Shown one piece after another: positions 2,788 through 52,992 of a stretch of 64,000 bases of DNA. The position numbers and the translations under genes are program-made. The DNA is from Inconstantimicrobium porci (GTDB taxonomy: Bacteria; Bacillota; Clostridia; Clostridiales; Clostridiaceae): assembly GCF_009696465.1 (NCBI RefSeq), contig NZ_VULX01000009.1:37537-101536 (forward strand). The letters run 5' to 3'. The notes below the pieces were generated by a model. It was not told the origin of the DNA. It searched no databases and worked only from the letters and a program-made list of their open reading frames with translations. The stretch's first letter is position 1. Each line of letters begins with the position of its first letter.

Positions 2788-4464
2788 TTATTTTCCTTGA
2801 ATACTTACTCCTGATAAATCATAACTTCCACCGAACTTAGGAATCTGATATCCCTTAACATAGTTCTTAGCAAATGTATTTACATCTGAGTAATATGTTG
2901 GCATAACTGCTGGATCCTGATTTATTAAAATGTCTTCAGCTTTCTTGTAAAGTTCAATTCTCTTGTTTTCATCTGTTTCAGCAGATGCTTCTTTTACAAT
3001 GCTGTCGAATTCTTTATTGCTGTAGTTTCCACTGTTGTTACCATTACCAGTTGTAAATATAGTGAAGTATGAACTTACATCATTATAGTCAGCAGTCCAT
3101 CCACCTCCACACATATCGAAATCTTTCTCAGTTCTTCTCTTATAATAAGTCTGAGCATCAGCAGTGAAGTCCTGCTTAATCTTTATTCCAAATGTTTCTT
3201 CGAATGTTTTCTGAATATAATCCCCAATTCCTTTTGTTATAGATGATTGTTCACCTAATAAGAAATCTATGCTTACTTTTGATGGATCTGTTATTCCTTC
3301 TTCTTTAAGTCCTTCTGTCATAAGCTTCTTAGCTTCGTCTACTGAAGTCTTTAAAGTTTGTGGAACTTCTTTTCTATATATCTTGCTTCCACAGTTAACT
3401 CCATCTGGAACTAAACCATAAGATGGTATACATCTCTTATATACAACATCTAAGAACTGCTGTCTGTCTAAAGCTAATGACATAGCCTTTCTAACTTTAG
3501 CATTCTTTAATACTCCTCTTGTTACATTGTAGTAGTTAAAATATGCTCCAGCATCCGGTCCAGATATATGTTGGAATTCACCGTTTTTAGCTTTTTCTTT
3601 TAATCTTGATAAATCATCTTTAGCTGCTGATGTAATATCAAGTTCTCCACCTTCGAACATCTTTACTAAAGTTGTTGTTTCAGTAATTATATGTCCTGTG
3701 GCTTTTTCAAGCTTAATGTTCTTAGCATCCCAATAAGTATCATTTTTCTTATATACAATCTTAGATCCCTTTGCATATTCAGAAACAGTAAATGGTCCAT
3801 TGTAAACCATCTTTGCTGGATCTGCCCCAAAAGCATCTCCTTGTTCTTTAACCTTATCTTCTCTTACTGGCGCTAAAACTCTGAATGATAATGCTTTTTC
3901 AAAATAAGGAGTTGGTTTTGCTAAAGTTACAACTAATGTGTTATCGTCTTTAGCTTGTACACCTATTTGATCAACTAACTTATCTACTTCTGCTCCACTT
4001 TTCTTTGCTTCAGCTGCTGCCATAACTTCACTTACACCTTTTACATTAAGTTCATCAAGTAAAGTCATGTAATCTGCTCCAGTTGATGGGTTAGTAAGTC
4101 TCTTCCAGGAATATTCATATTCTGATGCTTTTACTGGCTTGCCGTCTGACCATTTAGCATCCTTTCTTAAATGAATAGTATAAGTAAGCCCATCAGAGCT
4201 CTTTTCTATCTTTTCAGCTCCTGCAAGTTCTGTTGTTTCTTTTCCGTCTTTTAGCACTTCTTTTGTAAGACACTCATAAATATTCTCCAAAGATGTAAAT
4301 GAATCAGAATCACTTACTTTATTTGGATCTAGTGACTTAAAATCATATCCTACTAAATTTAAAGCTTGCTCAGATGCACCATCACTACTGCTGCCGCAAC
4401 CAGCTAATACTGTAGATGATACTATTCCCGCTAATAATACCGCCAATATTTTCTTTTTCTTCAT
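2788..4464 (-). CDS. Peptide ABC transporter substrate-binding lipoprotein (SBP family 5, OppA-like), paralog 1
   Basis: Lipoprotein signal MKKKKILAVLLAGIVSSTVLAGCGS. OppA/DppA-like body. The start was moved to the ATG preceded by AAAGGAAG; the ORF track starts 30 nt further upstream. Confidence 0.8.
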   Translation of the reverse strand: MKKKKILAVLLAGIVSSTVLAGCGSSSDGASEQALNLVGYDFKSLDPNKVSDSDSFTSLENIYECLTKEVLKDGKETTELAGAEKIEKSSDGLTYTIHLRKDAKWSDGKPVKASEYEYSWKRLTNPSTGADYMTLLDELNVKGVSEVMAAAEAKKSGAEVDKLVDQIGVQAKDDNTLVVTLAKPTPYFEKALSFRVLAPVREDKVKEQGDAFGADPAKMVYNGPFTVSEYAKGSKIVYKKNDTYWDAKNIKLEKATGHIITETTTLVKMFEGGELDITSAAKDDLSRLKEKAKNGEFQHISGPDAGAYFNYYNVTRGVLKNAKVRKAMSLALDRQQFLDVVYKRCIPSYGLVPDGVNCGSKIYRKEVPQTLKTSVDEAKKLMTEGLKEEGITDPSKVSIDFLLGEQSSITKGIGDYIQKTFEETFGIKIKQDFTADAQTYYKRRTEKDFDMCGGGWTADYNDVSSYFTIFTTGNGNNSGNYSNKEFDSIVKEASAETDENKRIELYKKAEDILINQDPAVMPTYYSDVNTFAKNYVKGYQIPKFGGSYDLSGVSIQGK

Positions 4465-4857
4465 TGTCTTTCTTCCTTTCGCCGCATATTCCATAATCTA
4501 TTAAAAGTTCTCATTTATTTAACAACACCCATATTTATCTATAAATGTTTGTTAAATCTTCGCTTTAAACAAAATTATAACGCAATTACTAATGATTTGC
4601 AAATATTATTCGTAAGATTCAATTTATTTTTAGACAAAATTATTAATATTTTATTTTTGTACTACATTTTTTGATTAAATATTATTTCATAACATCTTGT
4701 AATCATTTTATTTAGGAACATTTTTATACTAATATGTTTTATTTTATTAAATAAAATCGAATTCACGAGAATATTGTTGTATTTATTTTAACAAATATAT
4801 CACTTTATTTTATGTTATAATTAATTATCAATATGCGTTTAAGGAAGTGTTTATATA

Positions 4858-5551: not shown

Positions 5552-7261
5552 TTACTTTGTTTTTCCTGAGATGTATACTGTACGTAAGTTGTAGTATCCA
5601 CCGAATTTAGGGTTTTCAAATCCTTTTACATAATTCTTTCTGAATGAATTTATATCACCATAATATGTTGGTATAACTGCTGCTTCATCTTTTACTAAGA
5701 TTTCTTCAGCCTTTTTGTACATATCCATTCTCTTATTATTATCTTGTTCAGATGCTGCATCTTTTACAAGTTTATCATATTCAGCATTCTTGAATTTACT
5801 ATTGTTGTTAGGGTTAGCTCCTAAAAATACTCCGAAATATGAACTTACATCGTTATAGTCAGCAGACCAGCCGCCACCACAAAGATCGAAGTCACTTGCT
5901 TGTCTCTTCTTGAAGTAGCTCTGAGAATCTGGTGAATAATCAAGAACTAAATTAATTCCAAATGCATCTTTATATAACTTCTGGAAATAATCACCCATAC
6001 TCTGGCTTATTGAAGTCTTAGGTCCAAATAGCATTGTAATCTTAGCTTTAGAAGCTTCTACTCCTTCTTCCTTAAGTCCTTCAGCCATTAATTTCTTTGC
6101 TTGTTCCTTATCAGTCTTAATTGATTCTTTAACTTCTTTTCTGTAATCTTTATCTCCACAAGAAATTCCTTCTGGAGCAATTCCGTATGATGGAATACAT
6201 CTCTTATAGACAACATCTAGCATTTCTTTTCTGTCAACAGCTAATGATAATGCTTGTCTAACTTTCTTGTTTTTAACTATTGGTCTAGTCACATTTACAT
6301 AATTGAAGTATGCTCCTGTATCTACACCCTGTACATATTGACATTCCTTATTCTGTGCCTTTTGTTTTAATCTAGCCAAATCATCTTTTGATGCTCCAGT
6401 TACATCTAATTCTCCACCTTCAAACATCTTAACAAGTGTAGTAGTTTCATTTATTATGCTACCATTGCAAGTCTGAAGTTTGATGTCCTTTGCACCCCAG
6501 TATTTATCATTCTTAGTGTAAACAATCTTAGAACCCTTCTGATATTCAGTTATTGTAAATGGTCCATTGTAAACTGTTGTCTTAGGATCAGATCCGAATT
6601 TATCTCCCTGTTCTTTAACTTTATCTTCTCTTATTGGAACAAGATCATCAAATGACATTGCATTGATAAAGAATGGTGTAGGTTTTTCCAGATGAACTAC
6701 AAATGTATAATCATCTTTAGCTTCAACGCCAAGTTTTTCAACTAAATCATCAGTTGGCTTCTTTGCATCTGCTGCATCGATTATATCCTGAGCACCTTTT
6801 ACATTTAATTCTGCAAGTAAAGTCATATAATCTGAACCAGTCTTAGGATTTATAAGTCTCTTCCAAGAGTAAACATATTGTTGAGCTGTAACTGGTTTTC
6901 CATCAGTCCACTTTGCATCTTTTCTTAAATGAAATGTATAAGTAAGTTTATCATCACTTAATTTATACTTTTCACATCCTGCTGGCTCAACAGTTGCCTT
7001 TCCATCCTTGTCTACTTCTTTCATTAAACCTTCATAAATATTAGTTAAACTTGATGATGATTCACTATCACTAACTAAGCTTGGATCAAGTGTCTTGAAA
7101 TCATATCCAGCTATGTTTAATACTTGTTCCTTATCTGGTGTATCTGTTGTTTGAGTTTTGTTTGAATCTGCAGCATCATTACTGCTTCCACATCCTGCTA
7201 ATACTCCTGAAGTTGCAACAACTCCAGTAAGTACTAAAGCTAATACTTTTTTTCTTTTCAT
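5552..7261 (-). CDS. Peptide ABC transporter substrate-binding lipoprotein (SBP family 5), paralog 2
   Basis: 569 aa with lipobox LAGCGSS. About 60% identical to paralogs 1 and 3 across its whole length. Confidence 0.8.
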   Translation of the reverse strand: MKRKKVLALVLTGVVATSGVLAGCGSSNDAADSNKTQTTDTPDKEQVLNIAGYDFKTLDPSLVSDSESSSSLTNIYEGLMKEVDKDGKATVEPAGCEKYKLSDDKLTYTFHLRKDAKWTDGKPVTAQQYVYSWKRLINPKTGSDYMTLLAELNVKGAQDIIDAADAKKPTDDLVEKLGVEAKDDYTFVVHLEKPTPFFINAMSFDDLVPIREDKVKEQGDKFGSDPKTTVYNGPFTITEYQKGSKIVYTKNDKYWGAKDIKLQTCNGSIINETTTLVKMFEGGELDVTGASKDDLARLKQKAQNKECQYVQGVDTGAYFNYVNVTRPIVKNKKVRQALSLAVDRKEMLDVVYKRCIPSYGIAPEGISCGDKDYRKEVKESIKTDKEQAKKLMAEGLKEEGVEASKAKITMLFGPKTSISQSMGDYFQKLYKDAFGINLVLDYSPDSQSYFKKRQASDFDLCGGGWSADYNDVSSYFGVFLGANPNNNSKFKNAEYDKLVKDAASEQDNNKRMDMYKKAEEILVKDEAAVIPTYYGDINSFRKNYVKGFENPKFGGYYNLRTVYISGKTK

Positions 7262-7780: not shown

Positions 7781-9505
7781 CTATTTTGTTTTTCCAGAGA
7801 TATAAACCTGAGATAAATCGTATTGACCACCAAACTTACTAAATGTAGATCCTTTAACATAATTCTTTCTGAATGAATTTATATCTGCATAATAACTTGG
7901 CATTATTCCAGCATCATCAGCAACAAGTATTTTTTCAGCTTCTTTATATAATTCAACTCTCTTTTTAGCATCTTCCTCTGATGCTGCCTTTTTAACAAGT
8001 TCATCATATTTAGGATTCTTATAGTGTCCATTGTTATTTGCACTGTCACTTAAGAAAACGCCGAAGAATGAACTTATATCATCATAATCTGGACCCCATC
8101 CACTAGATGCTATGTCAAAATCTCCTTCATTTAACAGTTTAAAGAATGTCTTACTATCAGGAGTAAATACCTGTTCAAGTTTTATACCAAAAGTATCCTT
8201 ATAAAGTTTCTCCATGTAATCACCTATAGCTGAAGTAGTAGAAGTCTTAGTTCCTAAAAGATCCTTTATAACTACCTTTGATGCATCTACGCCTTCTTCT
8301 TTAAGTCCTTCAGTCATAAGTTTCTTTGCTTCTTCAACATCATTCTTGATTGGTTCAGGAACTTCCTTTCTGTAAACACTACCGCTACAGTCAACTCCAT
8401 CAGTTATAAGACCATAAGCAGGAATCATTCTCTTATAAACAACGTCAAGGTATTCTTGTCTGTTTATTGCTAAAGATAATGCTTTTCTTACCTTTGCATT
8501 CTTTAATATTCCTTTTGTAACATTAAAGTATTCATAATAAGATGTAGTGTCTTTTCCATGGATATATGTTATTTCACCATTCTTAGCTTTTTCTTTAAGC
8601 CTTGCAAGATTATCTTTTGATGCTCCTGTTAAATCAAGTTCTCCAGTTTCAAACATCTTAACAAGAGTATTTGATTCATCTATGATAAATCCATTAGCAG
8701 TTTCAAGTTTGATATTCTTAGCATTCCAATACTTGGTGTTTTTCTTATATACTATCTTTGAACCTTTCTGATAATCTGATATTGTAAATGGTCCATTGTA
8801 CACAACAGTGTTAATATCAGCTCCGTACTTATCTCCAGCAGCCTTTACTTTATCTTCTCTTACTGGTACAAGGCCCTTAAATGTCATTGCATTTAAAAAA
8901 TATGGTGTTGGTTTTGCAAGCTTAACTTCAAAAGTATAATCATCTTTAGCTTCAACACCTAACTTCTCTACAAGAGCATCAGTTGTTGCTTTATCCTTTT
9001 TAGCTGTTGCTGCATCAATTATTTCCTGCGCTCCTTTAACATTTAATTCTGCCAGTATTGTCATATAAGGAGCAGCTGTTGTTGGATTTATTAATCTCTT
9101 CCATGCATACACATAATCTTTTGCTGTTACAGGTTTATCATCTGTCCATTTAGCATCTTTTCTTAAATGGAATGTATATGTCAATTTATCACTGCTGACA
9201 TCTACCTTTTCAGCTCCAGCGTTAACTATCTTTGTATTTCCCTTTATATCTGTCTGTTCTCTCATAAGTCCTTCAAATACCTGATTCATACTTGTAAAAC
9301 TTTCTGCATCACTTACTTTAGCTGGATCAAGAGAAGTATAATCATAGCCAACTAAATTTAAAGTCTGATCTTTATCCGGCTTTGTATCAGCTGTCTTTTC
9401 AGTTGAAGTTTCTTTTTTTTCTTCAGTACTACCACATCCTGCAAACACCATTGTACTTACTGTTGTAGCTGCTAAAAATAAAGCTACTAGTTTTTTCTTA
9501 TTCAT
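7781..9505 (-). CDS. Peptide ABC transporter substrate-binding lipoprotein (SBP family 5), paralog 3
   Basis: 574 aa with lipobox FAGCGST. Homologous to paralogs 1 and 2. Confidence 0.8.
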   Translation of the reverse strand: MNKKKLVALFLAATTVSTMVFAGCGSTEEKKETSTEKTADTKPDKDQTLNLVGYDYTSLDPAKVSDAESFTSMNQVFEGLMREQTDIKGNTKIVNAGAEKVDVSSDKLTYTFHLRKDAKWTDDKPVTAKDYVYAWKRLINPTTAAPYMTILAELNVKGAQEIIDAATAKKDKATTDALVEKLGVEAKDDYTFEVKLAKPTPYFLNAMTFKGLVPVREDKVKAAGDKYGADINTVVYNGPFTISDYQKGSKIVYKKNTKYWNAKNIKLETANGFIIDESNTLVKMFETGELDLTGASKDNLARLKEKAKNGEITYIHGKDTTSYYEYFNVTKGILKNAKVRKALSLAINRQEYLDVVYKRMIPAYGLITDGVDCSGSVYRKEVPEPIKNDVEEAKKLMTEGLKEEGVDASKVVIKDLLGTKTSTTSAIGDYMEKLYKDTFGIKLEQVFTPDSKTFFKLLNEGDFDIASSGWGPDYDDISSFFGVFLSDSANNNGHYKNPKYDELVKKAASEEDAKKRVELYKEAEKILVADDAGIMPSYYADINSFRKNYVKGSTFSKFGGQYDLSQVYISGKTK

Positions 9506-9852: not shown

Positions 9853-10530
9853 TTTCTAAGTATGAACTTACATCATCATAGTCAGGTCCCCATCCTGATC
9901 CACCTATGTCAAACTCACCTTTATCAAACATATCATAAAATGTTGTATCATCAGGAGTAAATACAGTCTCAAGTGTAATACCAAATGTTTCTTTATACAA
10001 CTTAGTCATATAGTCTGAAAGATCTGATGTAATTGTAACCTTTGGTCCAAGCAGGTATTGTATACTATCTTTGATCCTTTTTGATAATCAGCTACAACAA
10101 ATGGTCCATTATACACCATTGTTTTGCAATCAACTCCATACTTTTCACCCTGGCTCTTTGCAATATCTTCTCTTATTGGCACAAGACCTTTAAATGTTAA
10201 TGCATTTATAAAATATGGAGTTACCTTTGTCAATGTAACTACTAAAGTATTATCATCTTTAGCTTCAACACCTAATTTATCAATAAGATCTTTAGCATCT
10301 TTTTTAGCTGAAGCTGCTGCAATTATTTCATCAGCACCTTTAACATTTAATTCGGCTAACAATGTCATATAAGGTGATCCATTTAATGGATTGATAAGCT
10401 GCTTCCAAGCATAAACGTAATCTTGTGCCTTTACAGGCTTATCATCTGACCACTTTGCATCTTTTCTTAAATGGAATGTATAAGTAAGTTTATCTGAACT
10501 TACTTCATAACTTTCACATCCAGCCTTTTC
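9853..10530 (-). pseudogene. Decayed fourth OppA-like SBP paralog, truncated at both ends and with an internal deletion
   Basis: DNA is collinear with internal parts of paralog 3 (8060-8270 and 8770-9215 equivalents). The central segment is missing. Only a 120-aa in-frame ORF remains (10006..10368). There is no signal peptide and no start. Confidence 0.7.
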
Positions 10531-10589: not shown

Positions 10590-11903
10590 TTATTTATTGT
10601 TGTGATAATTATAAATATAAAACGGAATTCCTATAAGCATTAATATAAATCCCCACATTACAGTTTCTGCCCCGGAACCATAAATTGCCCATATTGTATA
10701 GCAGAATGCAAGAAGTGGAACAAATGCTTTTTTCACAAAAATCTTAAAATTAAAATGTTTTTCTTCTCTAAACATTATCATTATTTCTGCTGATATAGCT
10801 AATAAATAAACTGGAAGAAATGATAATGTTGCAAGAATCGTCATAAATGTAAAAGCTGAAACCATGCTTTTCTGATAATTCATAACAAGAAGTATATTCA
10901 TAAGGAGAGATCCTATCACAAGGGAACTTATAGGTGTCCCATACTTACTGCTTATTTTGCCAAAAAATTTAGGGAATACACCATCTTCTCCTGCTGCATA
11001 TGATATTCTGGCAGTTGATAAAAGCCATCCAATCATAGTTCCTGTAAGACATATAATTACTGATACTATGAATATGCTTCCAATTGATTTTCCAAGTATA
11101 TTTGTAAGTATATCAGTCATTGGTGCAGTACTCTGTGCTAAATCAGAATTAGACATAGTTCCCATGCTGCTAATGCTTATAAGAAGATAAATTGCTGCTG
11201 AAATTATAAGTCCATAGATTGTACTCTTCTTAACATTCTTTTCGGGATTTTTTATTTCCCCTGCAGTAACAGTAGCACTTTCAAGACCAATAAATGCCCA
11301 TAAAGTTGTCGTTGCTGCTAACGGAACTGTACCTAACCCCTTTCCTTCAGGCATCAATGGCATAAAGTTAGCTTTTTCAAAATTCAACAGTGCCGCTATT
11401 ATAAAAACTGAGAAAAATACTATCTTGAACACTGTAGTTAATGCCTGAATTTTTCCTGCCTGTTTCACACCGATAATGTTAAGTATTGTAAATAACCAAA
11501 GTACAGCACTAGAAACAATAACTGCTATTGTAGGATTGTTCAAAGCTGGAAATAATCCTACACTGTAACTTACAAGCGTAACCATTATTGCTGCATTGCC
11601 AATCCATGATCCATTCCAATAAAGCCAGGCACTTAAAAAACCTGCAAAATCCCCAAAGGCTTCTTTCGTATATTGATAAGCGCCTCCAGTTGCTGTATAT
11701 CTTGTACTTAAGTTAGCAAAAGATATAGCAATTAATATTGAACCAGCTGTTGTTAATATCCATGCTATTATGGTCGCAAGAGGCCCAGATACCTGAGCAA
11801 GCGTTGATGGAAGCATAAATATTCCTGAACCAATCATGTTACCACACACAAGCATAGTAGCCATGAACAAGCTCATTTCCTTCTTTAGTGACTTGTTTTC
11901 CAT
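10590..11903 (-). CDS. APC-family amino acid permease
   Basis: 437 aa with 12 predicted TM segments. The N-terminal block MATMLVCGNMIGSGIFMLPS is characteristic of APC amino-acid/polyamine transporters. Confidence 0.8.
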   Translation of the reverse strand: MENKSLKKEMSLFMATMLVCGNMIGSGIFMLPSTLAQVSGPLATIIAWILTTAGSILIAISFANLSTRYTATGGAYQYTKEAFGDFAGFLSAWLYWNGSWIGNAAIMVTLVSYSVGLFPALNNPTIAVIVSSAVLWLFTILNIIGVKQAGKIQALTTVFKIVFFSVFIIAALLNFEKANFMPLMPEGKGLGTVPLAATTTLWAFIGLESATVTAGEIKNPEKNVKKSTIYGLIISAAIYLLISISSMGTMSNSDLAQSTAPMTDILTNILGKSIGSIFIVSVIICLTGTMIGWLLSTARISYAAGEDGVFPKFFGKISSKYGTPISSLVIGSLLMNILLVMNYQKSMVSAFTFMTILATLSFLPVYLLAISAEIMIMFREEKHFNFKIFVKKAFVPLLAFCYTIWAIYGSGAETVMWGFILMLIGIPFYIYNYHNNK

Positions 11904-11924
11904 GTTTTCCTCCTAAGTAAAAAA

Positions 11925-12002
11925 GGTTTGCAAGACATATTCCGAAGCCTCCGTCGTTCCCTGCGGTCTCTCCAAGTCGTTTCTTCATATGTCTTGCAAA
12001 CC
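11925..12002. repeat. Family-2 stem/core repeat, copy A (16-bp perfect stem around the TCCGAAGCCTCCGTCG...CTCCAAGTCG core). On the minus strand it reads as a terminator-like hairpin plus U6, 20 nt before the permease RBS
   Basis: ggtttgcaagacatat ... atatgtcttgcaaacc. Homologous copies are at 13789, 25868 and 51380. Confidence 0.7.
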
Positions 12003-12055
12003 TCAGATTACTAAAGGATGAAATTGCCTTATACCATTTTTTGTATTAACTTGTA

Positions 12056-12104
12056 AATCCTTTGTTTTCAAAGCTTTACAGCATTAAAATTGTTTATTGC
12101 AATT
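12056..12104. repeat. Family-3 'D-module' repeat (TCCTTTGTTTTCAA.GCTTTACAGCATTAAAATT...CAATGCAATT), copy 1
   Basis: Near-identical modules are at 13916-13970 and 52814-52868. Confidence 0.65.
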
Positions 12105-12220
12105 TTATATATTAACATAAATTCAATACTTTTTGTATTCTTATTTAGTATAACCGGCATTATAATGCATAATTCATAGCTCATAGTGCATAATTTATGC
12201 GTTATGCATTGAATAAAAAT

Positions 12221-12246
12221 ATCGCCGTGAATTTAATCACGGCGAT
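12221..12246. terminator. Bidirectional terminator after the 76-aa gene
   Basis: Hairpin atcgccgtga-attta-atcacggcgat flanked by A- and T-runs. Confidence 0.55.
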
Positions 12247-12255
12247 ATTTTTATC

Positions 12256-12486
12256 CTAGCTGTTTAACAGGGCAAAGATTTGTCCTACTATTGCTTTTGC
12301 TTGATCTGGCAATCTTTCTATAGCCCTTTGACGTTTTCTTTCATCATTTATGGAGGCTATTCTCATTACTTCCTGCTTAAGGCCAGGAATACTTTCAAGT
12401 TGGCTAATGAGGTTATTAAACTGTCTTGCAAATACAGGATTCTGCATTTTACTTTGTATAAGATTAACAAGTTCAAACGGATTCAT
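12256..12486 (-). CDS. Hypothetical small protein (76 aa)
   Basis: Clean ORF with its own terminator. No family was recognised from the sequence. Confidence 0.45.
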   Translation of the reverse strand: MNPFELVNLIQSKMQNPVFARQFNNLISQLESIPGLKQEVMRIASINDERKRQRAIERLPDQAKAIVGQIFALLNS

Positions 12487-12553
12487 ATCATTACTCCTGC
12501 ATAGGTTTTTTCTACTAATATTAATATTCTATTCTCATCAAAGTGTGCTAATT

Positions 12554-13693
12554 TTATAGTGAAATCTTTTTATCTTTAAGCTTTTTCTTAATAACTTCAG
12601 ATAGCAGAGTATACATAATACTTACAAGTGGAATTCCGATAAGTATACCAAGTATTCCAAACGCACTTCCTCCAATAACCGTTGCAAGCATAACCCATAT
12701 GCCGGAAAGTCCTATAGTTCCTCCTACCACAGTTGGATATATAAAATGCCCTTCAAGCTGCTGAATAATAACTATAATTACTAAAAACCAGAATGATTTT
12801 ATTGGACTTATAGTAAATAATATAAACACTCCTGGAATAGTTCCAATTATTGCCCCAAAGATAGGAATCAATGCAGTAACTCCTATTATTACACTTATAA
12901 GTGCTGCATAAGGCATTTTAAATACAATCATAGCAATAAATACAAGCACCCCAATGATTATAGCTTCAGTACACTGCCCTTCAATAAACTTTGAGAATTT
13001 TTCATTAGCTATATGGACTACTTTTATTATCAAATTAACTTTTTCCTTTTTAAAGAAAGCATACATAAATTTTTTTATATTCAATATGAGTTTTTCTTTG
13101 TCCCAAAGCATGTAGATTGCAAGAATGAATGCAATAAAGAAATTAACTATAATAGATGTAACAGACATTGTTATATCTACTACCTGCGAAAAAAACTGAG
13201 TCGTTATCTTTCCCGCAGCTATAGCAATATCCTTCCACATATTCATAACCTGCTCTACAACCTCAGTAATTATAGTACTATTCTTAAAATCATTATCTAC
13301 CATACCTTCAATTGATTTTAAACTTTCCGGAATGTTTTTCACCAAATTAATGATACTGTTTTTAAGCTGAGGAATCACAAAAATCATTATCAGGACAATA
13401 ATTCCTACAATAGATACAAGAGTCATTACTATAGATATTGGTCTTTTTAATTTTTTATATTTTCCCTTCTTATATGTATCAAGTGAATTTAAAAGTTTAG
13501 CTTCATAAAATTTCATAGGTATATTGAGTATAAATGCTATTGCAACAGCAATAAAAAACGGACTTATTATATTAAATATATATGATACACCTAATTTTAC
13601 GCTCTTAAAATTAAATAACAAAAAAACTAATAGTATCACATATGTAGAAATTATAAATCCTGTTTTTAAATTGTCACTTTCTCTTTTATTCAT
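12554..13693 (-). CDS. AI-2E family transporter (UPF0118, YtvI/PerM-like)
   Basis: 379 aa, about 8 TM segments, with the organisation typical of AI-2E family permeases. Confidence 0.65.
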   Translation of the reverse strand: MNKRESDNLKTGFIISTYVILLVFLLFNFKSVKLGVSYIFNIISPFFIAVAIAFILNIPMKFYEAKLLNSLDTYKKGKYKKLKRPISIVMTLVSIVGIIVLIMIFVIPQLKNSIINLVKNIPESLKSIEGMVDNDFKNSTIITEVVEQVMNMWKDIAIAAGKITTQFFSQVVDITMSVTSIIVNFFIAFILAIYMLWDKEKLILNIKKFMYAFFKKEKVNLIIKVVHIANEKFSKFIEGQCTEAIIIGVLVFIAMIVFKMPYAALISVIIGVTALIPIFGAIIGTIPGVFILFTISPIKSFWFLVIIVIIQQLEGHFIYPTVVGGTIGLSGIWVMLATVIGGSAFGILGILIGIPLVSIMYTLLSEVIKKKLKDKKISL

Positions 13694-13788
13694 AAAAACC
13701 GCCTACAATCCTTAATGTTGAGATAATGTATAATGTATAGAGTATAATGTATAATTTCGGATTAAACTCCCCGTGTGGGAGTTTATAA

Positions 13789-13858
13789 AAAAGGATGAAA
13801 GACATATTTCGAATCCTCCGTCGACACGCTCCAAGTCCTTTCTTTATATGTCTTTCAC
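13789..13858. repeat. Family-2 stem/core repeat, copy B (stem ggatgaaagacatat/atatgtctttcacccc). On the minus strand it is terminator-like plus U6, followed by the H1 hairpin (13760-13782) and then the transporter start
   Basis: The core TTCGAATCCTCCGTCGACACGCTCCAAGTC is nearly identical to copies C and D. Confidence 0.7.
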
Positions 13859-13915
13859 CCCTTGATGACTAAAGGACAAAATTGCATTCTTCCATCCTCT
13901 TACACAAGCGTGCAA

Positions 13916-13970
13916 CCCCTTTAGTTTCAACGGTTTACATCATTAAAATTTCACCATTTACAATGCAATT
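13916..13970. repeat. Family-3 D-module repeat, copy 2
   Basis: cccctttagtttcaacggtttacatcattaaaatttcaccatttacaatgcaatt. Compare 12056 and 52814. Confidence 0.6.
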
Positions 13971-14239
13971 TCCTAGACATTAAAAAGAGAGCTTTGCCCT
14001 CTTTAAATCTCCTAATTTAATAATTGTGGTGGGTTGAAGGTATTGCCTCCATTAAAATTAAGAAATTAGTTAGCTCAGCGCAGCTAATTTTATCATGAAT
14101 TATACAATATAAATTCTACATTACTTATGAGTTTATTTTGTATTAAAAACAGGTATTTTATTAATTATATTACCTTGATAAATAATTATAATTTATGATA
14201 CATTCTTAGTAGCAAATTTTATATTAAGGAGAATAATCT

Positions 14240-25316: not shown

Positions 25317-25862
25317 ATGGATTATTTTCAAAAGATATTTTTGTATTTTATAATATATTCTTTTTTTGGATGGATGTTTGAAGTAGCATATGCTTACACT
25401 CACCAGGGAAAATTCGTTAACAGAGGTTTTCTTAATGGTCCATTCTGTCCACTATATGGATCTTCAAGCGTAATTATAATTACACTTCTTAATCCCTTTA
25501 AGAATAATTTTATTTTATTGTTTATAATGTCAACAATATTGACTTCTGCAATTGAATATGTCACAGGATTTCTTTTAGAAAAAGTCTTTAATCAGAAATG
25601 GTGGGACTACACAGAAGATCCATTTAACCTTCACGGAAGAATATGTCTTCTCTTCTCATTAATGTGGGGAGCAGCCTGTGTTTTAATCATAAAGATTGTT
25701 CAGCCAATATTCGCTGCACTGCTGTCATTCATATCATACAAGATGATGATTTACGTGTGCATAGGATTCGCTGTATACTTCGCAGTTGATGGCGCAGCAA
25801 CTCTGTTAAAACTTGCAAACATTGATATATCATCAAAATTTAATTTAAATAAATTTGCCTAA
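25317..25862 (+). CDS. Putative ABC-transporter type IV family membrane protein (DUF1113-like)
   Basis: The SFFGW...E..Y......G.FVNRGFLNGP.CP.YG pattern near the N-terminus is characteristic of this family. 181 aa. Confidence 0.5.
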   Translation: MDYFQKIFLYFIIYSFFGWMFEVAYAYTHQGKFVNRGFLNGPFCPLYGSSSVIIITLLNPFKNNFILLFIMSTILTSAIEYVTGFLLEKVFNQKWWDYTEDPFNLHGRICLLFSLMWGAACVLIIKIVQPIFAALLSFISYKMMIYVCIGFAVYFAVDGAATLLKLANIDISSKFNLNKFA

Positions 25863-25867
25863 ACTTT

Positions 25868-25924
25868 CAAGACCTACTTCGAATCCTCCGTCGGCACGCT
25901 CCAAGTCGGCTCTGCATAGGTCTT
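25868..25924. repeat. Family-2 stem/core repeat, copy C (caagacctac / taggtctt stem), followed by the CTAAAGGATAAAAGTGCATT module and + strand terminator hairpins at 25950-25969 and 25986-26015
   Basis: Core TTCGAATCCTCCGTCGGCACGCTCCAAGTCGGCTCTGCA. Confidence 0.7.
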
Positions 25925-26115
25925 AAAAGTTTTAATGCTAAAGGATAAAAGTGCATTAGCAAATGCACTTTTTAAAAATAGAAAGAGCTGATATAGATTT
26001 TTCACTATATCAGCTTTTTTCTTTTACAATTAATATTAATAAATTATGAAAGCAGAATGAAGATTGATGAATTCAGGAAACAATCAGTACGCGTTGCTTA
26101 CTGATTCTAATTTCT

Positions 26116-26216
26116 AATGGAGGTTTCACCTCCAAACCTCTGATATCTTAAATTTTAAAGAATTATAAGAGGAACTTGTCCTCTTATTCTGAAACTCCCC
26201 CAAAGGAGTTTCATCC
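26116..26216. repeat. Family-1 composite hairpin repeat, full copy
   Basis: Modules AATGGAGGtttcaCCTCCAAACC, AAGAGGaacttgtCCTCTT and GAAACTCCcccaaaGGAGTTTCATCC. Confidence 0.7.
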
Positions 26217-28266: not shown

Positions 28267-30258
28267 TTACTCAGTTTTAAATTTTTCTATATTTACTTTT
28301 AATTCATCTACTATACGTGAAATATTATCAGCAGATTCACTAACATTCTGCACTACAATTATCTGATTTTCAGATGATGCAGTAACTTCTTCAGCCACAG
28401 CTGCATTTTCTTCTGAACTGCTTGCTAAAGTTTCTATGAGTTTTAGTAGTTCTTCGCTGAAATTCTTAATAAAATCAATAAGTTTATTAAATGATTTAAT
28501 GTTATCTGCAATCTTATTATCTACATTAGCAATTGAATTAAATATTTCTAAAGTATCATTTACTGTAGATGCTTGAAGCTTCATACCATCATTAACAGTA
28601 TTCATTAAATTTGTTGTTTTTTCCGCTTTAACTTTAATATTATTTAGAATCTCTGATATTTGCTTTGTGGCCTCCTGTGACTGATTTGCAAGTTTTCCTA
28701 CTTCTTCTGCAACAACTGCAAATCCCTTTCCACTTTCTCCTGCCCTTGCAGCTTCAATAGCAGCATTTAATGCTAACATACTTGTTTGATCTGCTATATC
28801 ACTTATTGTAGCTGTAATTCTATCTATATTACTTACAGATTCAGATAAATCTTTAACCTCATCTACTGTCTCCTCAACTATTTTATACTGAGCCTCAGTA
28901 TTATTCTTCAATTCTCTTGTTCCATTATTTCCATTAATAAGTGCTTCTTGAGAAATGCTTAAAGCATCGTTAATTTCACTCAATTCATTTGTCAATTCTT
29001 CCATTTTATCATCTAAATTTCTAACACTCTTTAATATATTATCTGATTTATCAGCTTGATGAACAGATCCTTCAGAAATCTCTTCCATAGCTTTTGCAAT
29101 ATCTTTACTAGTTTCTTCCGCTGATGATGATATTTCATTTAAAGCTATTGATGCATTCTTTAAATCATCACTTTTACTCTGTATGCTTAATACAAGATTC
29201 TTCAACGACATTACCATCTCATTAAAATCTTTTCCTATATTCACAATTTCAACGGAGCCTTTAACATTACATTCAGCAAATAAATTCCCTTCTGCAACAT
29301 CTTTACTTAAAGATGCCAAACTAGAAATTGGCTTTACAAAACGTTTTGAAACAAACAACGCAAACCATACTATTGCAACTATCATAATAATAGACAAGAT
29401 CACTGTTATTATAATAATCCCTAAAAACGCATTATAAATTTCTATTTGCGGAATGGTAGTTATGCTTCCCCATTTTAATGATGGTACAAAATTATATACT
29501 GCTACTTGAGCTGTACCATTATATTTAAACCTTACACTATTACAATTTCCCTGTATTGCTTTCTTTGCTGCTTCTGATAATTCGTCAGATCTACTAAAAA
29601 GGTTTTCTTTCATTATCTTACTTGAATCGTCATTATATGTTACATTGCCGTTAGCATCAAAAGTATATATCTTTCCTCTATCTGAATATAATATCTTACC
29701 AATATCCTGTTGTATGCCTTGCACTTTAACTTCATTTACAATATAACCAATAACATTATTATCTTTTTTTACTGGAGATGAAAACACAATTAAAGGAGTA
29801 TTTGTTTCTTTATCTAAAAATACGTTGCTTACATAAGAACAACCTCTTACAACATTATTAAAATAGTTCTTATCTTTAATACTTCCATTAATAGATCCCA
29901 TAGAATCTGTTATTATATTCCCATTTAAGTCTATATACATTATATTTACAATATCTAAGTCTTGAGATTGTCTATTTTTCAATTCAATTTTTATATTATC
30001 TATATCATTACTATGTAATACTCTAGAACTAGCAATGTCTTCAACTAAAAGTACTTGATCATCCCCCCACTTATCAATATTGTTAGTAGCCATACTTGAT
30101 ATCTGCTTAAGCGAACTAATCTGACTATCATACATAGATTTATTGACCACTATTGCTGTACTAACTGTCAAAATTATCAAAGGTATTATACCGATAATTA
30201 AAAAACTTAGTATCATTTGAAATTTTAAGCTTGTTTCTTTTCTTAAGTTACGTTTCAT
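28267..30258 (-). CDS. Methyl-accepting chemotaxis protein with a periplasmic dCache-type sensor
   Basis: TM, about 250-aa extracytoplasmic domain, TM, HAMP, then an MCP signalling domain (EELSASIEE...[18 protein letters not shown]). Confidence 0.85.
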
Positions 30259-39614: not shown

Positions 39615-39815
39615 ATTTAAAATTTAGAATGTAGAATTCAGGTTAAAATTCATTAGCTTCGCCATGAATTTAATTTAATGGAGGATTCTCCTCCAAACCA
39701 CCTGCGAAATTACTGAACGTAATTCCAACTAGAGGCTTGTCCGCCCTATATTTATTTCAAAAACTCACTCAAGGGAGTTTTTCCCTTAATTTTAGATTTT
39801 AAAATCTAAATTTTA
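39615..39815. repeat. MITE-like element: a family-1 composite repeat flanked by 15-bp inverted repeats (AATTTAAAATTTAGA)
   Basis: Left end ...gaatttaaaatttagaat. Right end tagattttaaaatctaaattttaaatta; the reverse complement matches the left end. Internal AATGGAGGattctCCTCCAAACC and AAAACTCActcaagGGAGTTTT modules. Confidence 0.5.
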
Positions 39816-42235: not shown

Positions 42236-42335
42236 AGAATAACTTGATTTAAAAATAATATCTATAGACTTATTTGTCACTTAGGTAAAAGGTAAGGAAA
42301 TAATTCTTGAGACAAGCACATGAATTCTAATCTTA

Positions 42336-42430
42336 AATGGAGGCATCGCCTCCAAACCACTATACTGTTTAACTTTAGAGGTTTGGAGGTAAAACCTCCA
42401 TTTTGAAACTCCAGTGGAGTTTCATCCTTA
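42336..42430. repeat. Family-1 composite hairpin repeat, full copy
   Basis: AATGGAGGcatcgCCTCCAAACC ... GGTTTGGAGGtaaaaCCTCCATTTT GAAACTCCagtGGAGTTTCATCC. Confidence 0.7.
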
Positions 42431-51379: not shown

Positions 51380-51450
51380 AAAATTTTAAGAGCTATTTCG
51401 ACTCCTCCGTCGGCGAGTTCCAAGTCGGCTCTGCATAGCTCTTAAAATTT
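51380..51450. repeat. Family-2 stem/core repeat, copy D (stem aaaattttaagagctat / atagctcttaaaattt)
   Basis: Core TTCGACTCCTCCGTCGGCGAGTTCCAAGTCGGCTCTGCA, 12 nt after the glnN stop. Confidence 0.7.
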
Positions 51451-51641
51451 AAAATTAATTAAAGAGTAAAAGAGCATATTTCCATCACATGTATTATTAG
51501 TACACTTTAACCCACTATACCTGTTGAAATACATTTTTTGATGCACTTTCTACATAAAATATAACCATATATATATTTCACTTATATTAATAATATAGTT
51601 TTTTTCTTTTCTATTCGTTGTTCTCTGTTATCTATTCACTA

Positions 51642-52576: not shown

Positions 52577-52813
52577 CTTGTCTCACCTCTTTCATTTCCT
52601 TTAACTTTATTATAAAATCATAAATTACTTATCTCAACTCACTAATATGATTGATTTTTAACATTTTTATTGGATTTTAAGCGTTCACTATTTTTCCCAA
52701 AAAGCACATTAGTACATTTTTATTTGCACATTGGTACAATTCAAACTACTTTTTTATAAAAAGGGTTACTAAAGAATGAATATGTATTGTACCTTTTTTG
52801 ATTTGAGCTGTAT

Positions 52814-52868
52814 ATCCTTTGTTTTCAACGCTTTACAGCATTTAAAATTCACCTTTTTCAATGCAATT
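52814..52868. repeat. Family-3 D-module repeat, copy 3
   Basis: atcctttgttttcaacgctttacagcatttaaaattcacctttttcaatgcaatt. Confidence 0.6.
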
Positions 52869-52943
52869 GGTCTAGGCATTAAAAAATTGATAAACCGAAG
52901 TCTATCAATTAGTTAAAAGTTTACGTGTTTTATTTATATTTTT

Positions 52944-52992
52944 AAGAGTAACTTGTTCTCTTACTTAGAAACTCCGTGAAGGAGTTTCATCC
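52944..52992. repeat. Family-1 hairpin repeat, partial copy (AAGAGtaacttgttCTCTT plus GAAACTCCgtgaaGGAGTTTCATCC)
   Basis: Same two modules as at 26168-26216. Confidence 0.6.

What the first reader, a model, noticed from the sequence alone, without database searches (positions are those of the whole stretch)
11925..12002. A 4-copy 'stem plus conserved core' element, two copies of which form terminator-like hairpins right on the RBS of transporter genes
There are four copies, at 11925-12002, 13789-13858, 25868-25924 and 51380-51450. Each has a perfect 9-16 bp outer stem, for example ggtttgcaagacatat/atatgtcttgcaaacc, around a conserved core TTCGAAtCCTCCGTCGgCaCGCTCCAAGTCggcTCTgca. The stem sequence differs between copies but always stays complementary, which points to selection on structure or on a palindromic site. 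Read on the minus strand, copies A and B are a long hairpin followed by UUUUUU, ending 15-25 nt before the RBS of the APC amino-acid permease and of the AI-2E transporter. Both share the same upstream leader modules: CTAAAGGAyrAAATTGC and the 'D module' (third finding below). That looks like the expression platform of an unknown riboswitch or attenuator. Copies C and D carry the same core and stem but sit after converging or terminating genes (ABC-IV, glnN) and lack the D module. The other reading is a structured intergenic repeat in the REP/BOX class. Neither reading fits an RNA class that I recognise.
Basis: seen in the sequence. Interest (0 to 1): 0.7.

Follow-up and report, generated by a model that had tools for sequence, protein, structure and literature searches.

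The report
Mobile hairpin repeat, not a riboswitch
The four "stem plus conserved core" elements are copies of a small mobile hairpin repeat that recently inserted between genes of this Clostridium-like gut bacterium, and the terminator look of two copies comes from a run of T's at the insertion site, so this is a fairly ordinary kind of selfish DNA rather than a new gene switch.

Summary
The four copies are real and non-random. The outer stems differ between copies yet stay paired: 7 of 17 pairs changed on both sides, none on one side only. No Rfam family matches.

The element is not a conserved leader. A sister species with a 94% identical permease has an empty site at copy A. Two relatives have an empty site at copy C. 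A 79% relative lacks copies A and B.

An older copy (D) is shared with the sister species, and there its "invariant" core has decayed. Recent insertions keep the consensus. That is the pattern of mobile DNA, not of a host regulatory RNA.

The elements are mosaics of three modules: the hairpin, a CTAAAGGA tail and the "D module". The larger composites are flanked on both sides by TTTTT(T)A, which is present once in the empty sites. Because the hairpin sits at the element's end, each insertion produces "hairpin + U-run". This explains why A and B look like terminators.

Related elements occur in Clostridium sartagoforme and C. gallinarum. The C. perfringens Clop-1 repeat is weakly similar.

Verdict: a new family of MITE-like or bcr-like intergenic repeats in Inconstantimicrobium porci. 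Effects on neighbouring genes are possible but incidental and untested.

The parts
11925..12085 (+). Copy A, type-1 composite: hairpin with core (11924-12003), CTAAAGGATGAAATTGC tail (12011-12027) and D module (12037-12085). On the minus strand it lies between the 76-aa ORF terminator and the APC permease RBS.
   Evidence: 84.8 bits. The element is absent in L144.
11918..11924 (+). TAAAAAA flank of copy A, read as UUUUUUA after the hairpin on the minus strand. A partner TAAAA lies at 12086-12090. This is a target-site repeat, present once (GTAAAAAT) in the sister's empty site.
13793..13980 (+). Copy B, type-1 composite: hairpin (13790-13863), CTAAAGGACAAAATTGC tail (13869-13885), D module (13896-13948) and the terminal ...CCTAGACAT. 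It is flanked by TAAAAAA (13786-13792) and TAAAAA (13981-13986). It is inserted inside another repeat module.
   Evidence: 83.9 bits. One search shows that the module in L160 joins B's two flanks across a single TTTTTA. The 79% relative lacks the element.
25861..25981 (+). Copy C, type-2 unit: hairpin with core (25861-25931), TAATGCTAAAGGAT, a small hairpin AAAAGTGCATT-AGCA-AATGCACTTTT, then TAAAAATAG. It is inserted between the stop codon of the CmpB-like gene (25860-25862) and that gene's ancestral terminator (25985-26016).
   Evidence: 89.7 bits. Empty sites in relatives L158 (92%) and L159 (96%) are.
51381..51480 (+). Copy D, type-2 unit: hairpin with core (51381-51450) and a degenerate tail TTAAAGAGTAAAAGAGC. 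It starts 12 nt after the glnN stop codon. This is an older insertion, shared with the sister species.
   Evidence: 89.7 bits. The element is absent in I. mannanitabidum L162.
52763..52879 (+). Copy E: tail (CTAAAGAATG) plus D module plus the terminal ...CTAGGCAT, without the hairpin. It is flanked by TAAAAA (52757-52762) and TAAAAAA (52880-52886). On the minus strand it lies between the terminator of the CAAX-protease gene and the cation-efflux gene's own consensus promoter.

Best explanation
The four hairpins are copies of a small, non-coding, non-autonomous mobile repeat of about 120-190 bp. It is MITE-like, and is mosaic in the way that BOX, BIME and bcr elements are. The host is Inconstantimicrobium porci, family Clostridiaceae.

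A full unit has three parts. At one end is a long hairpin whose 20-30-nt apical region carries two conserved blocks, CCTCCGTCG and CTCCAAGTC(GGCT). Next comes a CTAAAGGA-type tail, often followed by a small hairpin.

Shown:
- Copies have inserted recently at different loci.
- The type-1 copies are bounded on both sides by TTTTT(T)A (minus-strand reading), which occurs once in the empty sites.
- Recent copies keep the consensus loop and perfect stems, while older copies decay.

Inferred:
- An enzyme supplied in trans (a transposase or site-specific recombinase) recognises the folded hairpin and its conserved loop, probably as single-stranded nucleic acid.
- Only copies with an intact helix and loop propagate. 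This would produce stems that differ between lineages yet always pair.

Because the hairpin lies at the very end of the element and the target is a T-run, every insertion builds 'hairpin + UUUUUU' on one strand. That is why A and B look like intrinsic terminators in front of transporter genes. Any effect on those genes is a by-product of insertion, not an evolved riboswitch. Such effects could include partial termination or, at A, sequestration of the RBS by the tail.
For: 1. Multi-copy family: the covariance model finds A-D at 84-90 bits, a fifth copy 8.7 kb outside the window, and relatives in C. sartagoforme, C. gallinarum and Clostridium MAGs. It finds none in about 100 kb of other relatives.
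2. Orthologous empty site at A: both flanks are shared with the sister species, and 23 nt stand in place of the 161-nt composite.
3. Empty sites at C in two relatives, where the stop codon abuts the same terminator.
4. The 79% relative has short intergenic regions at both A and B.
5. TTTTT(T)A directly abuts both ends of A, B and E. B's two flanks are contiguous across a single TTTTTA in another copy of the host module.
6. The shared older copy D' in the sister has lost the block-1 consensus (CCTCCGCCTT), has AAGTCAG in block 2, and has a bulged stem. Copy F has decayed stems and an inverted block. The recent insertions A and C are intact.
7. At one locus, L003 and L123 have flanks 98-99% identical, but the element is only about 85% identical and the right-hand tails are unrelated. 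This indicates copy replacement.
8. Modules occur in three combinations.
9. Stem covariation is strong.
10. There is no coding potential and no Rfam or tRNA match.
11. Similar elements in Firmicutes, the bcr repeats, are associated with a repeated TTTAT motif (PMC6542083). The hairpin repeat Clop-1 of C. perfringens shares ATAAAA-CTTACAAACATATTCCGA with copy A.
Against: - No transposase or recombinase is present in the window, and no autonomous partner was found.
- The whole genome could not be scanned, so the copy number is extrapolated from 5-6 copies in about 75 kb.
- The outer ends are the least conserved part and the centre is the most conserved. This is the opposite of classical TIR-MITEs.
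- The insertion at A is accompanied by a deletion or divergence of about 24 nt, so that junction is not clean.
- At C, relative L159 retains a stretch resembling the outer arm. This leaves loss versus gain ambiguous for that relative.
- For the type-2 copies the second boundary is defined only at C.
- The paralogous empty site for B comes from another species.
- The G-U wobble counts (3 on the minus reading, 1 on the plus reading) and the placement of 6 of 6 after-stop copies in sense orientation hint at some RNA-level constraint that this model does not require.
Confidence: 0.72

Rival explanations
1. Host-level cis-acting RNA element. The family may be mobile in origin, but the hairpin would be retained because it works in transcripts. 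It could act as a 3'-UTR stabiliser or exonuclease barrier, as a terminator or insulator against convergent transcription, or as a protein-binding loop, as proposed for REP, ERIC and Correia elements.
For: - Six of six after-stop copies (C, D, F, L017, L122, L109) lie in sense orientation between the stop codon and the terminator.
- Three G-U pairs are tolerated on the minus reading, and the minus-strand RNA folds are more stable.
- The loop sequence is conserved across species.
- On the strand where the T-run follows it, the hairpin would stop antisense read-through into the upstream gene.
Against: - The orthologous copy D' in the sister species has lost the loop consensus, so there is no purifying selection in situ.
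- Closely related species do without the element at A and C.
- Orientation relative to neighbouring genes is not uniform: A, B and L124 are reversed, and the L124 copy lies upstream of the promoter.
- Sense orientation can also follow from an asymmetric target such as TAA followed by an A-run.
Confidence: 0.15
2. One reading: the hairpin plus U6 of A and B is the expression platform of an unknown riboswitch or protein-dependent attenuator controlling transporter genes. The D module and CCUUUAG sequence would be the sensor part of the leader.
For: - A and B lie upstream of transporter genes, co-directional with them, with a strong hairpin (-27 to -34 kcal/mol) followed by U6.
- A shared leader of about 190 nt is present at A and B.
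- In the fold of A's leader, the CCUUUAG region pairs with the permease RBS.
Against: - The whole leader is missing upstream of the same permease in the 94% sister species and in the 79% relative. It is also missing upstream of AI-2E in the 79% relative.
- The third copy of the leader (E) lies upstream of the cation-efflux gene's own consensus promoter and lacks the hairpin.
- The hairpin also occurs after glnN, after a CmpB-like gene and after FtsW-like and SDR genes.
- The B hairpin ends about 93 nt from the start codon.
- The U-run is the insertion-site repeat.
- There is no Rfam hit.
- No mutually exclusive antiterminator fold was seen.
Confidence: 0.04
3. A family of small-RNA genes carried on a mobile cassette. 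On the minus strand the D module would supply a promoter (TTTACA-18-TATAAG at A, TATACA-17-TACAAT at E, TTGCAC-18-AAGAAT at B). The transcript of about 105 nt would start near GCAAUUUCAUCCUUUAG, an anti-Shine-Dalgarno-like seed, and end at the hairpin plus U6.
For: - Reading the sequence shows promoter-like hexamers with conserved spacing in all three D modules.
- The layout of promoter, short transcript and terminator is compact.
- UCCUUU is complementary to ribosome-binding sites and pairs with the permease RBS in the predicted fold.
Against: - The consensus promoter scan of the A/B region did not report these sites.
- Copies C, D, F and the whole C. sartagoforme-type subfamily lack the D module.
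- Copy E has the putative promoter but no hairpin or terminator.
- There are no expression data.
- The seed differs in D.
Confidence: 0.06
4. A REP/RAYT-type or IS200/IS605-derived (PATE) element, moved as single-stranded DNA by an HUH tyrosine transposase that recognises the hairpin. This is a specific version of the best explanation.
For: - The hairpin has a conserved loop and a variable but always paired stem.
- All five copies in this region lie on the same chromosomal strand.
- In type-1 composites there is a hairpin near each end.
- Insertion occurs next to a fixed short sequence.
Against: - Direct TTTTTA repeats lie on both sides, whereas IS200/IS605 elements make no duplication.
- The hairpin foot carries no GTAG or CGTC tag, and the size is far above the 20-40 bp given for REPs (PMC3733652).
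- Orientation relative to replication is opposite in the two subfamilies. The window copies lie on the lagging strand, and the C. sartagoforme-type copies lie on the leading strand.
- No Y1 transposase was seen in the window.
Confidence: 0.1

Closest known systems
bcr repeats (bcr1-bcr18) of the Bacillus cereus group
   Same: Both are small, non-coding, interspersed intergenic repeats in a low-GC Firmicute. Both fold into stable hairpins and are restricted to a narrow group of species. In both, mobility is linked to a short AT-rich repeated flank: TTTAT in bcr (PMC6542083) and TTTTT(T)A(T) here.
   Different: No sequence similarity was tested or seen. The bcr groups are defined in Bacillus. 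Here the most conserved part is the apical loop of the hairpin, and the element is built from separable modules.
Clop-1 stem-loop repeat family of Clostridium perfringens (Petrillo/Cozzuto et al. 2008, PMC2267715)
   Same: Clop-1 is an intergenic hairpin repeat of about 93 bp with about 44 copies, in a member of the Clostridiaceae. It starts with ATAAAA followed by the arm CTTACAAACATATTCCGA, and ends with ...TTCTCTTCATACTGTTTGTAAG-TTTTAT. Copy A has TAAAAAA-GGTTTGCAAGACATATTCCGA ... TTTCTTCATATGTCTTGCAAACC. The local 5' match has p<0.0005 by shuffling.
   Different: A Clop-1 profile HMM does not detect any window copy. The apical regions are unrelated: Clop-1 extends the palindrome and has no CCTCCGTCG or CTCCAAGTC blocks. 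Clop-1 has only been described computationally and has no known mechanism.
BOX elements of Streptococcus pneumoniae and BIMEs of enterobacteria (mosaic intergenic repeats)
   Same: Both are modular. Separate short modules occur in different combinations at different loci, lie in intergenic regions, and can fold. Here the modules are the hairpin, the tail and the D module.
   Different: The sequences and hosts are unrelated. BIMEs are built from REPs of 20-40 bp with GTAG tags. Insertion-site duplications are not a feature of BOX or BIME elements (from general knowledge).
Correia (NEMIS) and ERIC elements: MITEs that form hairpins in mRNA
   Same: Both are about 100-150 bp and non-autonomous. 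Both insert at an AT-rich target with duplication and fold into long hairpins when co-transcribed. Both can create promoters or terminators or alter mRNA stability next to genes (from general knowledge).
   Different: Those elements have well-conserved terminal inverted repeats and a variable centre. Here the stems vary with compensation and the loop is conserved.
Intrinsic (Rho-independent) terminators and attenuators
   Same: On the minus strand, A and B are stable hairpins followed directly by U6.
   Different: The hairpin is 70-80 nt long with a large structured apical region. C and D lack the U-run. The U-run is explained as the insertion-site repeat. The structure is absent from orthologous leaders.

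Membership tests
Riboswitch / transcription-attenuation leader | Conserved upstream of orthologous genes in related species | tested here: not met
   It is absent upstream of the permease in the 94% sister species and in the 79% relative. It is also absent upstream of AI-2E in the 79% relative.
Riboswitch / transcription-attenuation leader | Consistent position and orientation in 5' UTRs of functionally related genes | tested here: not met
   Six of nine loci lie after stop codons (C, D, F, L017, L122, L109). The L124 copy lies upstream of a consensus promoter.
Riboswitch / transcription-attenuation leader | Mutually exclusive terminator and antiterminator folds | tested here: inconclusive
   The fold of A's leader shows only the hairpin extended by pairing with the RBS, with no competing helix. 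Only one leader was folded.
Any Rfam RNA family | Covariance-model match at the gathering score | tested here: not met
   There were 0 matches in the window. A permissive search of 11800-14100 gave only chance-level hits.
MITE (non-autonomous DNA transposon) | Short, non-coding and present in multiple copies | tested here: met
   The units are 120-190 bp. There are 5 full copies and 1 partial copy in about 75 kb, with no conserved ORF.
MITE (non-autonomous DNA transposon) | Presence/absence differences between close relatives, with empty sites | tested here: met
   Locus A is and locus C. Locus D is present in the sister species and absent in the outgroup.
MITE (non-autonomous DNA transposon) | Target-site duplication | tested here: met
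   TTTTT(T)A abuts both ends of A, B and E and occurs once in one orthologous and one paralogous empty site. For type-2 copies it was seen only at C. Site-specific recombination at a TTTTTA core would look the same.
MITE (non-autonomous DNA transposon) | Terminal inverted repeats shared with an autonomous IS that encodes the transposase | not testable with these tools
   No transposase is present in the window. In type-1 units the inverted repeat is the hairpin at one end, not a pair of termini.
REP / RAYT | A 20-40 bp palindrome with a GTAG or CGTC tag at the foot | tested here: not met
   The hairpins are 70-80 bp and carry no GTAG or CGTC at the stem foot. The criteria are taken from PMC3733652.
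IS200/IS605-derived PATE | No target duplication, and orientation tied to the replication direction | tested here: not met
   Direct repeats lie on both sides. The window copies are on the lagging strand and the related subfamily is on the leading strand.
Clop-1 (C. perfringens) | Detectable by a profile built from Clop-1 members | tested here: not met
   nhmmer with a 21-member Clop-1 profile gave no hit on A-D at E<=10. Only a local similarity of arm plus TCCGA was found.
Mosaic repeats (BOX/BIME type) | Independent modules combined differently at different loci | tested here: met
   The combinations are hairpin + tail + D module (A, B), hairpin + tail (C, D, F) and tail + D module (E).
Intrinsic terminator | Stable hairpin immediately followed by a U-tract | tested here: inconclusive
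   This is met on the minus strand for A and B (U6) and not for C and D (U3-U4). The simple terminator scan does not report them because their loop exceeds 8 nt. Function was not tested.

The most novel reading that the evidence does not exclude
The hairpin's conserved 9+9-nt loop would be the recognition site of an as yet unknown enzyme or host protein that acts on folded single-stranded nucleic acid. The element would be a 'portable terminator'. Every insertion at TTTTTA assembles a ready-made hairpin plus U-tract. At some loci the cell would use this, for example to throttle the APC permease through termination plus RBS sequestration by the CCUUUAG tail. The family would then act as a mobile cis-regulatory module that spreads a common control signal.
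Probability: 0.12. Interest if true: 0.55.

Novelty: new member of a known kind. Interest (0 to 1): 0.3.

Why it matters
The finding removes a false riboswitch candidate. It also shows how one arises: a mobile hairpin that lands on a T-run mimics an intrinsic terminator in front of a gene, and shared mosaic modules mimic a conserved leader. Scans for new cis-regulatory RNAs in AT-rich Firmicutes should check for empty sites in sister genomes before calling a motif.

The family itself is undescribed. It is unusual among bacterial small repeats in conserving the loop rather than the termini, which points to a hairpin-reading mobilisation enzyme that would be worth identifying. The insertions may also alter expression of a permease, an AI-2E transporter and the 3' ends of glnN and an ABC-system gene in a pig or chicken gut anaerobe.

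Tried and rejected
1. tRNA or tmRNA-derived sequence or att site. The core contains TTCGAATCC...CTCCA. However, ARAGORN finds nothing, the T-stem partner is missing, and the related subfamily has ATGCTCAGCC in place of TTCGAATCC.

2. Small ORFs. GGAGG-N9-ATG occurs in A and B, and a 16-codon ORF occurs in the C. sartagoforme-type copies. The start codon and reading frame are not conserved in C, D or L109, and there are indels between the blocks (read).

3. Known RNA families. There were no Rfam matches at the gathering score or at permissive thresholds.

4. Plasmid or phage origin. BLAST of copy C against 72,556 plasmids and 50,697 phages gave only chance hits. The viral-contig pattern scan gave only chance hits in high-GC contigs.

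5. My genome-wide pattern with a variable gap was too loose. Of the 120 loci returned, almost all are chance matches in unrelated phyla and only L003, L017 and L109 are real.

6. Replication-strand bias as evidence for single-strand transposition. The bias is consistent within the window but opposite in the related subfamily.

7. In-situ compensatory evolution at the L003/L123 locus. This is explained instead by copy replacement, because the flanks are 98-99% identical while the element and tail differ much more.

8. D module as a strong promoter. The consensus scan did not report it.

9. Pairing between the CTAAAGGA tail and the GGAGGAU block as a covarying helix. It holds only with a register shift in D and involves purine- and pyrimidine-rich sequences, so it is not convincing.

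10. Clop-1 membership by profile search failed.

Full report
**Observation**

The four copies exist where stated, all with the core on the + strand. The two invariant blocks are CCTCCGTCG and TCCAAGTC, separated by 6 nt in B, C and D and by 14 nt in A. The fixed-spacing motif gives 3 matches where 0.01 are expected.

The outer arms are 17/17 (A), 16/18 (B), 15/16 (C) and 16/16 (D) complementary. On an alignment of the four copies the outer helix has 17 pairs. Seven of these changed on both sides and none on one side only. 95% of cells are paired, no shuffle out of 500 does as well, and sliding the partner by one column drops pairing to about 45%.

Both strands fold far better than shuffled sequence. 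The minus-strand RNA is more stable for B and C because three mismatches become G-U pairs.

The CTAAAGGA tail follows all four copies. The D module follows A and B only.

Two details in the finding are inaccurate. The U6 of A ends 4 nt before the Shine-Dalgarno sequence. The U6 of B ends about 93 nt before the AI-2E start codon.

One is a hairpin-less copy of tail plus D module at 52763-52879. The other is a decayed copy just outside the window.

**What it is not**

No Rfam family matches at curated thresholds in the whole window. A permissive search of the A/B region gives only chance-level hits. There are no tRNA or tmRNA genes.

**Organism and relatives**

The GlnN protein of the window is 100% identical to one named Inconstantimicrobium porci. 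Contigs of the same species are identical at locus A.

The closest other lineages available were:
- a sister lineage (permease 94%, GlnN 93%, CmpB-like 92-96%);
- a 79% relative with the same gene order at the A/B locus;
- I. mannanitabidum (GlnN 79%).

**Empty sites**

At locus A the sister contig L157 shares the upstream flank (...TTAATATATAAAAnTGCAATAAAyAAT) and the downstream flank (TTTTTACTyAGGAGGAAAACATG). It has 23 nt where the window has the 161-nt composite of D module, tail and hairpin. The 79% relative has intergenic regions of 182 nt against 352 nt at A, and 222 nt against 546 nt at B, with no trace of the element.

At locus C, two relatives have the stop codon followed within 3-11 nt by the same terminator (AAAAAAGCTGATAyAG...). 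In the window that terminator lies about 120 nt further on, beyond the hairpin, the CTAAAGGA tail and a small hairpin.

At locus D the sister species does carry an orthologous copy (65.8 bits), and I. mannanitabidum does not.

So insertions of different ages are present. A and C are younger than the split from the sister lineage, and D is older.

**Decay pattern**

In the shared copy D' the supposedly invariant block 1 reads CCTCCGCCTT. Block 2 reads CCAAGTCAG, and the stem has acquired a bulge.

The extra copy F, just outside the window, has mismatched arms. A 7-nt piece of block 1 is replaced by its reverse complement.

The young insertions A and C match the consensus exactly. Consensus retention therefore tracks the recency of insertion, not the locus. 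This is expected if selection acts on the ability of element lineages to spread. It is not expected for a host regulatory RNA maintained in place.

At the one locus shared by L003 and L123/L124, 290 nt of flank is 98-99% identical. The element there is only about 85% identical and the right-hand tails are unrelated. This indicates replacement by another family member rather than point mutation.

**Boundaries and the 'terminator'**

The type-1 composites read as follows on the minus strand:
- B: ctcTTTTTA|ATGTCTAGG...CATCC|TTTTTTAt
- E: caaTTTTTTA|ATGCCTAGACC...AACCC|TTTTTAt
- A: caaTTTTA|ATGCTGTAAAGC...CAAACC|TTTTTTAc

.

The sister's empty site at A has a single TTTTTA. B's two flanks belong to another repeat module, GGAGAnTTTAAAGAGGGCAnAGCyCTC-TTTTTA-rAACTCC...GGAGTTyAATCC. 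In sister contig L160 that module is uninterrupted, with one TTTTTA at the junction.

The elements are therefore bounded by a duplicated, or recombined, TTTTTA. Copy C has TTTTTA at its tail end. Copy F has TTTTTTA at its hairpin end.

Because the hairpin is terminal, the T-run that made A and B look like terminators is the insertion-site repeat.

**Family outside this species**

A looser pattern found related units in C. sartagoforme (L017), C. gallinarum (L109), a Clostridium MAG (L003) and metagenome contigs (L122-L124).

These units have a 16-18-bp stem of different sequence. Their core is ATGCTCrGCCTCCGTCG-N5-CTCCAAGTCGGCTTAC. A tail of about 70 nt contains CTAmAAAGGA and a small hairpin. 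The model built from the four window copies detects them at 31-42 bits.

They lie after stop codons of FtsW-like, SDR and other genes. In L123/L124 they lie, partly duplicated in tandem, upstream of a perfect TTGACA-17-TATAAT promoter, so that copy is not in a leader.

In these loci the core strand has positive GC skew. In the window it has negative GC skew. Orientation is therefore not tied to replication in a single way.

**Literature**

A 2008 survey of stem-loop repeat families lists Clop-1 in C. perfringens, a 93-bp intergenic family of 44 copies, without any proposed function (PMC2267715).

Its consensus shares the ATAAAA lead-in, the inner arm and the TCCGA with copy A. The 5' local alignment is TTGCAAGACATATTCCGA against TTACAA-ACATATTCCGA, with p<0.0005 by shuffling. 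The 3' side is weaker, and copies B and D are not significant.

A Clop-1 profile does not detect the window copies. The relationship is therefore possible but unproven.

The bcr repeats of the B. cereus group are described as mobile through a recombination-like mechanism associated with a repeated TTTAT motif (PMC6542083). They are the nearest characterised analogue.

REP elements are defined by 20-40-bp palindromes with GTAG or CGTC tags (PMC3733652). These hairpins do not fit that definition.

**Mechanism**

Shown:
- the family is multi-copy and modular;
- it has inserted recently;
- the type-1 copies are bounded by TTTTTA;
- it conserves the loop and keeps the stem paired in young copies, and it decays in old ones.

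Inferred:
- a trans-acting transposase or recombinase reads the folded hairpin and loop;
- the loop blocks are separated by a spacer of variable length (5-14 nt), which argues for recognition in single-stranded form rather than as duplex DNA.

Not shown:
- the enzyme;
- whether folding matters as DNA or as RNA;
- any effect on neighbouring genes.

In the predicted fold of A's leader, the element-borne UUUCAUCCUUUAGUAA pairs with the permease's UUACUUAGGAGGAAA. Insertion A could therefore lower both transcription and translation of the permease. This is a prediction only.

**Rivals**

The riboswitch/attenuator reading fails on conservation, position and orientation.

A host-level RNA role remains possible for some copies, because all after-stop copies are in sense orientation. 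It is weakened by the decay of D'.

An sRNA-gene reading of the type-1 composite rests on weak promoter-like hexamers that the scan did not report.

An IS200/IS605 or RAYT-type mechanism is disfavoured by the flanking direct repeats and by the inconsistent strand bias.

**Verdict**

This is a real, non-random and previously undescribed repeat family, of a known general kind. The terminator-like appearance at two transporter genes is a consequence of where and how it inserts.

Noticed in passing
window 26113-26140, 39674-39701, 42333-42403 (an inverted pair), and a degenerate copy near 14020-14050: A second small repeat family of the form AATGGAGG-nnnn-CCTCCAAACC(AC), each copy being a short GC-rich hairpin. 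One copy sits just beside copy B and another near copy C. A similar unit occurs in sister contig L160 (about 12425-12455).
   Followed up: partly
window 13745-13782 and 13981-14016; also 52967-52992; L160 12556-12625: A third repeat module: GGAGAnTTTAAAGAGGGCAnAGCyCTCTTTTTA followed by rAACTCC-N6-8-GGAGTTyAATCC, which forms two small hairpins. Copy B is inserted exactly between its two halves. The region therefore holds nested repeats.
   Followed up: partly
window 2788-4494, 5552-7261, 7781-9505, 10006-10368: Three tandem paralogous oligopeptide-type solute-binding protein genes (SBP_bac_5, about 570 aa, 60-75% DNA identity) plus a 120-aa fragment of a fourth. Contigs of other strains call products of differing length here (204, 340 and 392 aa), which suggests ongoing decay or rearrangement.
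   Followed up: partly
window 52704-52738 and 52609-52637 (minus strand): Upstream of the cation-efflux gene lie two direct repeats, TGTACCAATGTGC and TGTACTAATGTGC, which look like an operator. They are followed by a consensus promoter, TTGAGA-17-TATAAT.
   Followed up: no
window 25317-25862: The CmpB-like protein is 181 aa, whereas most homologues are 250-300 aa. Its stop codon overlaps the first bases of copy C's arm. However, the 92% and 96% relatives without the element are also 181 aa, so the element did not cause the shortening.
   Followed up: yes
L153 20397-20466 (about 8.7 kb left of the window start): In decayed copy F the block GTCGGC is replaced by its reverse complement, GCCGAC. 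This creates a new inner hairpin, AGCCGAC...GTCGGCT. It is a short inversion inside a hairpin loop.
   Followed up: no
window 11898-11990, minus strand: In the predicted fold, the element's CAUCCUUUAGUAA tail pairs with the permease's UUACUUAGGAGG (RBS), extending the hairpin by 13 bp. The sister species without the insert has a free RBS.
   Followed up: partly
window 28267-30258, 54247-56256, 60386-62395: Three paralogous dCache-type methyl-accepting chemotaxis protein genes. Two of them lie 6.1 kb apart and are 72-77% identical at the DNA level.
   Followed up: no
L159 1147-1785: In one relative that lacks copy C, a transposase-like gene (HTH_Tnp_2) lies immediately downstream of the CmpB-like gene's terminator. 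This locus is therefore a recurrent insertion site.
   Followed up: no
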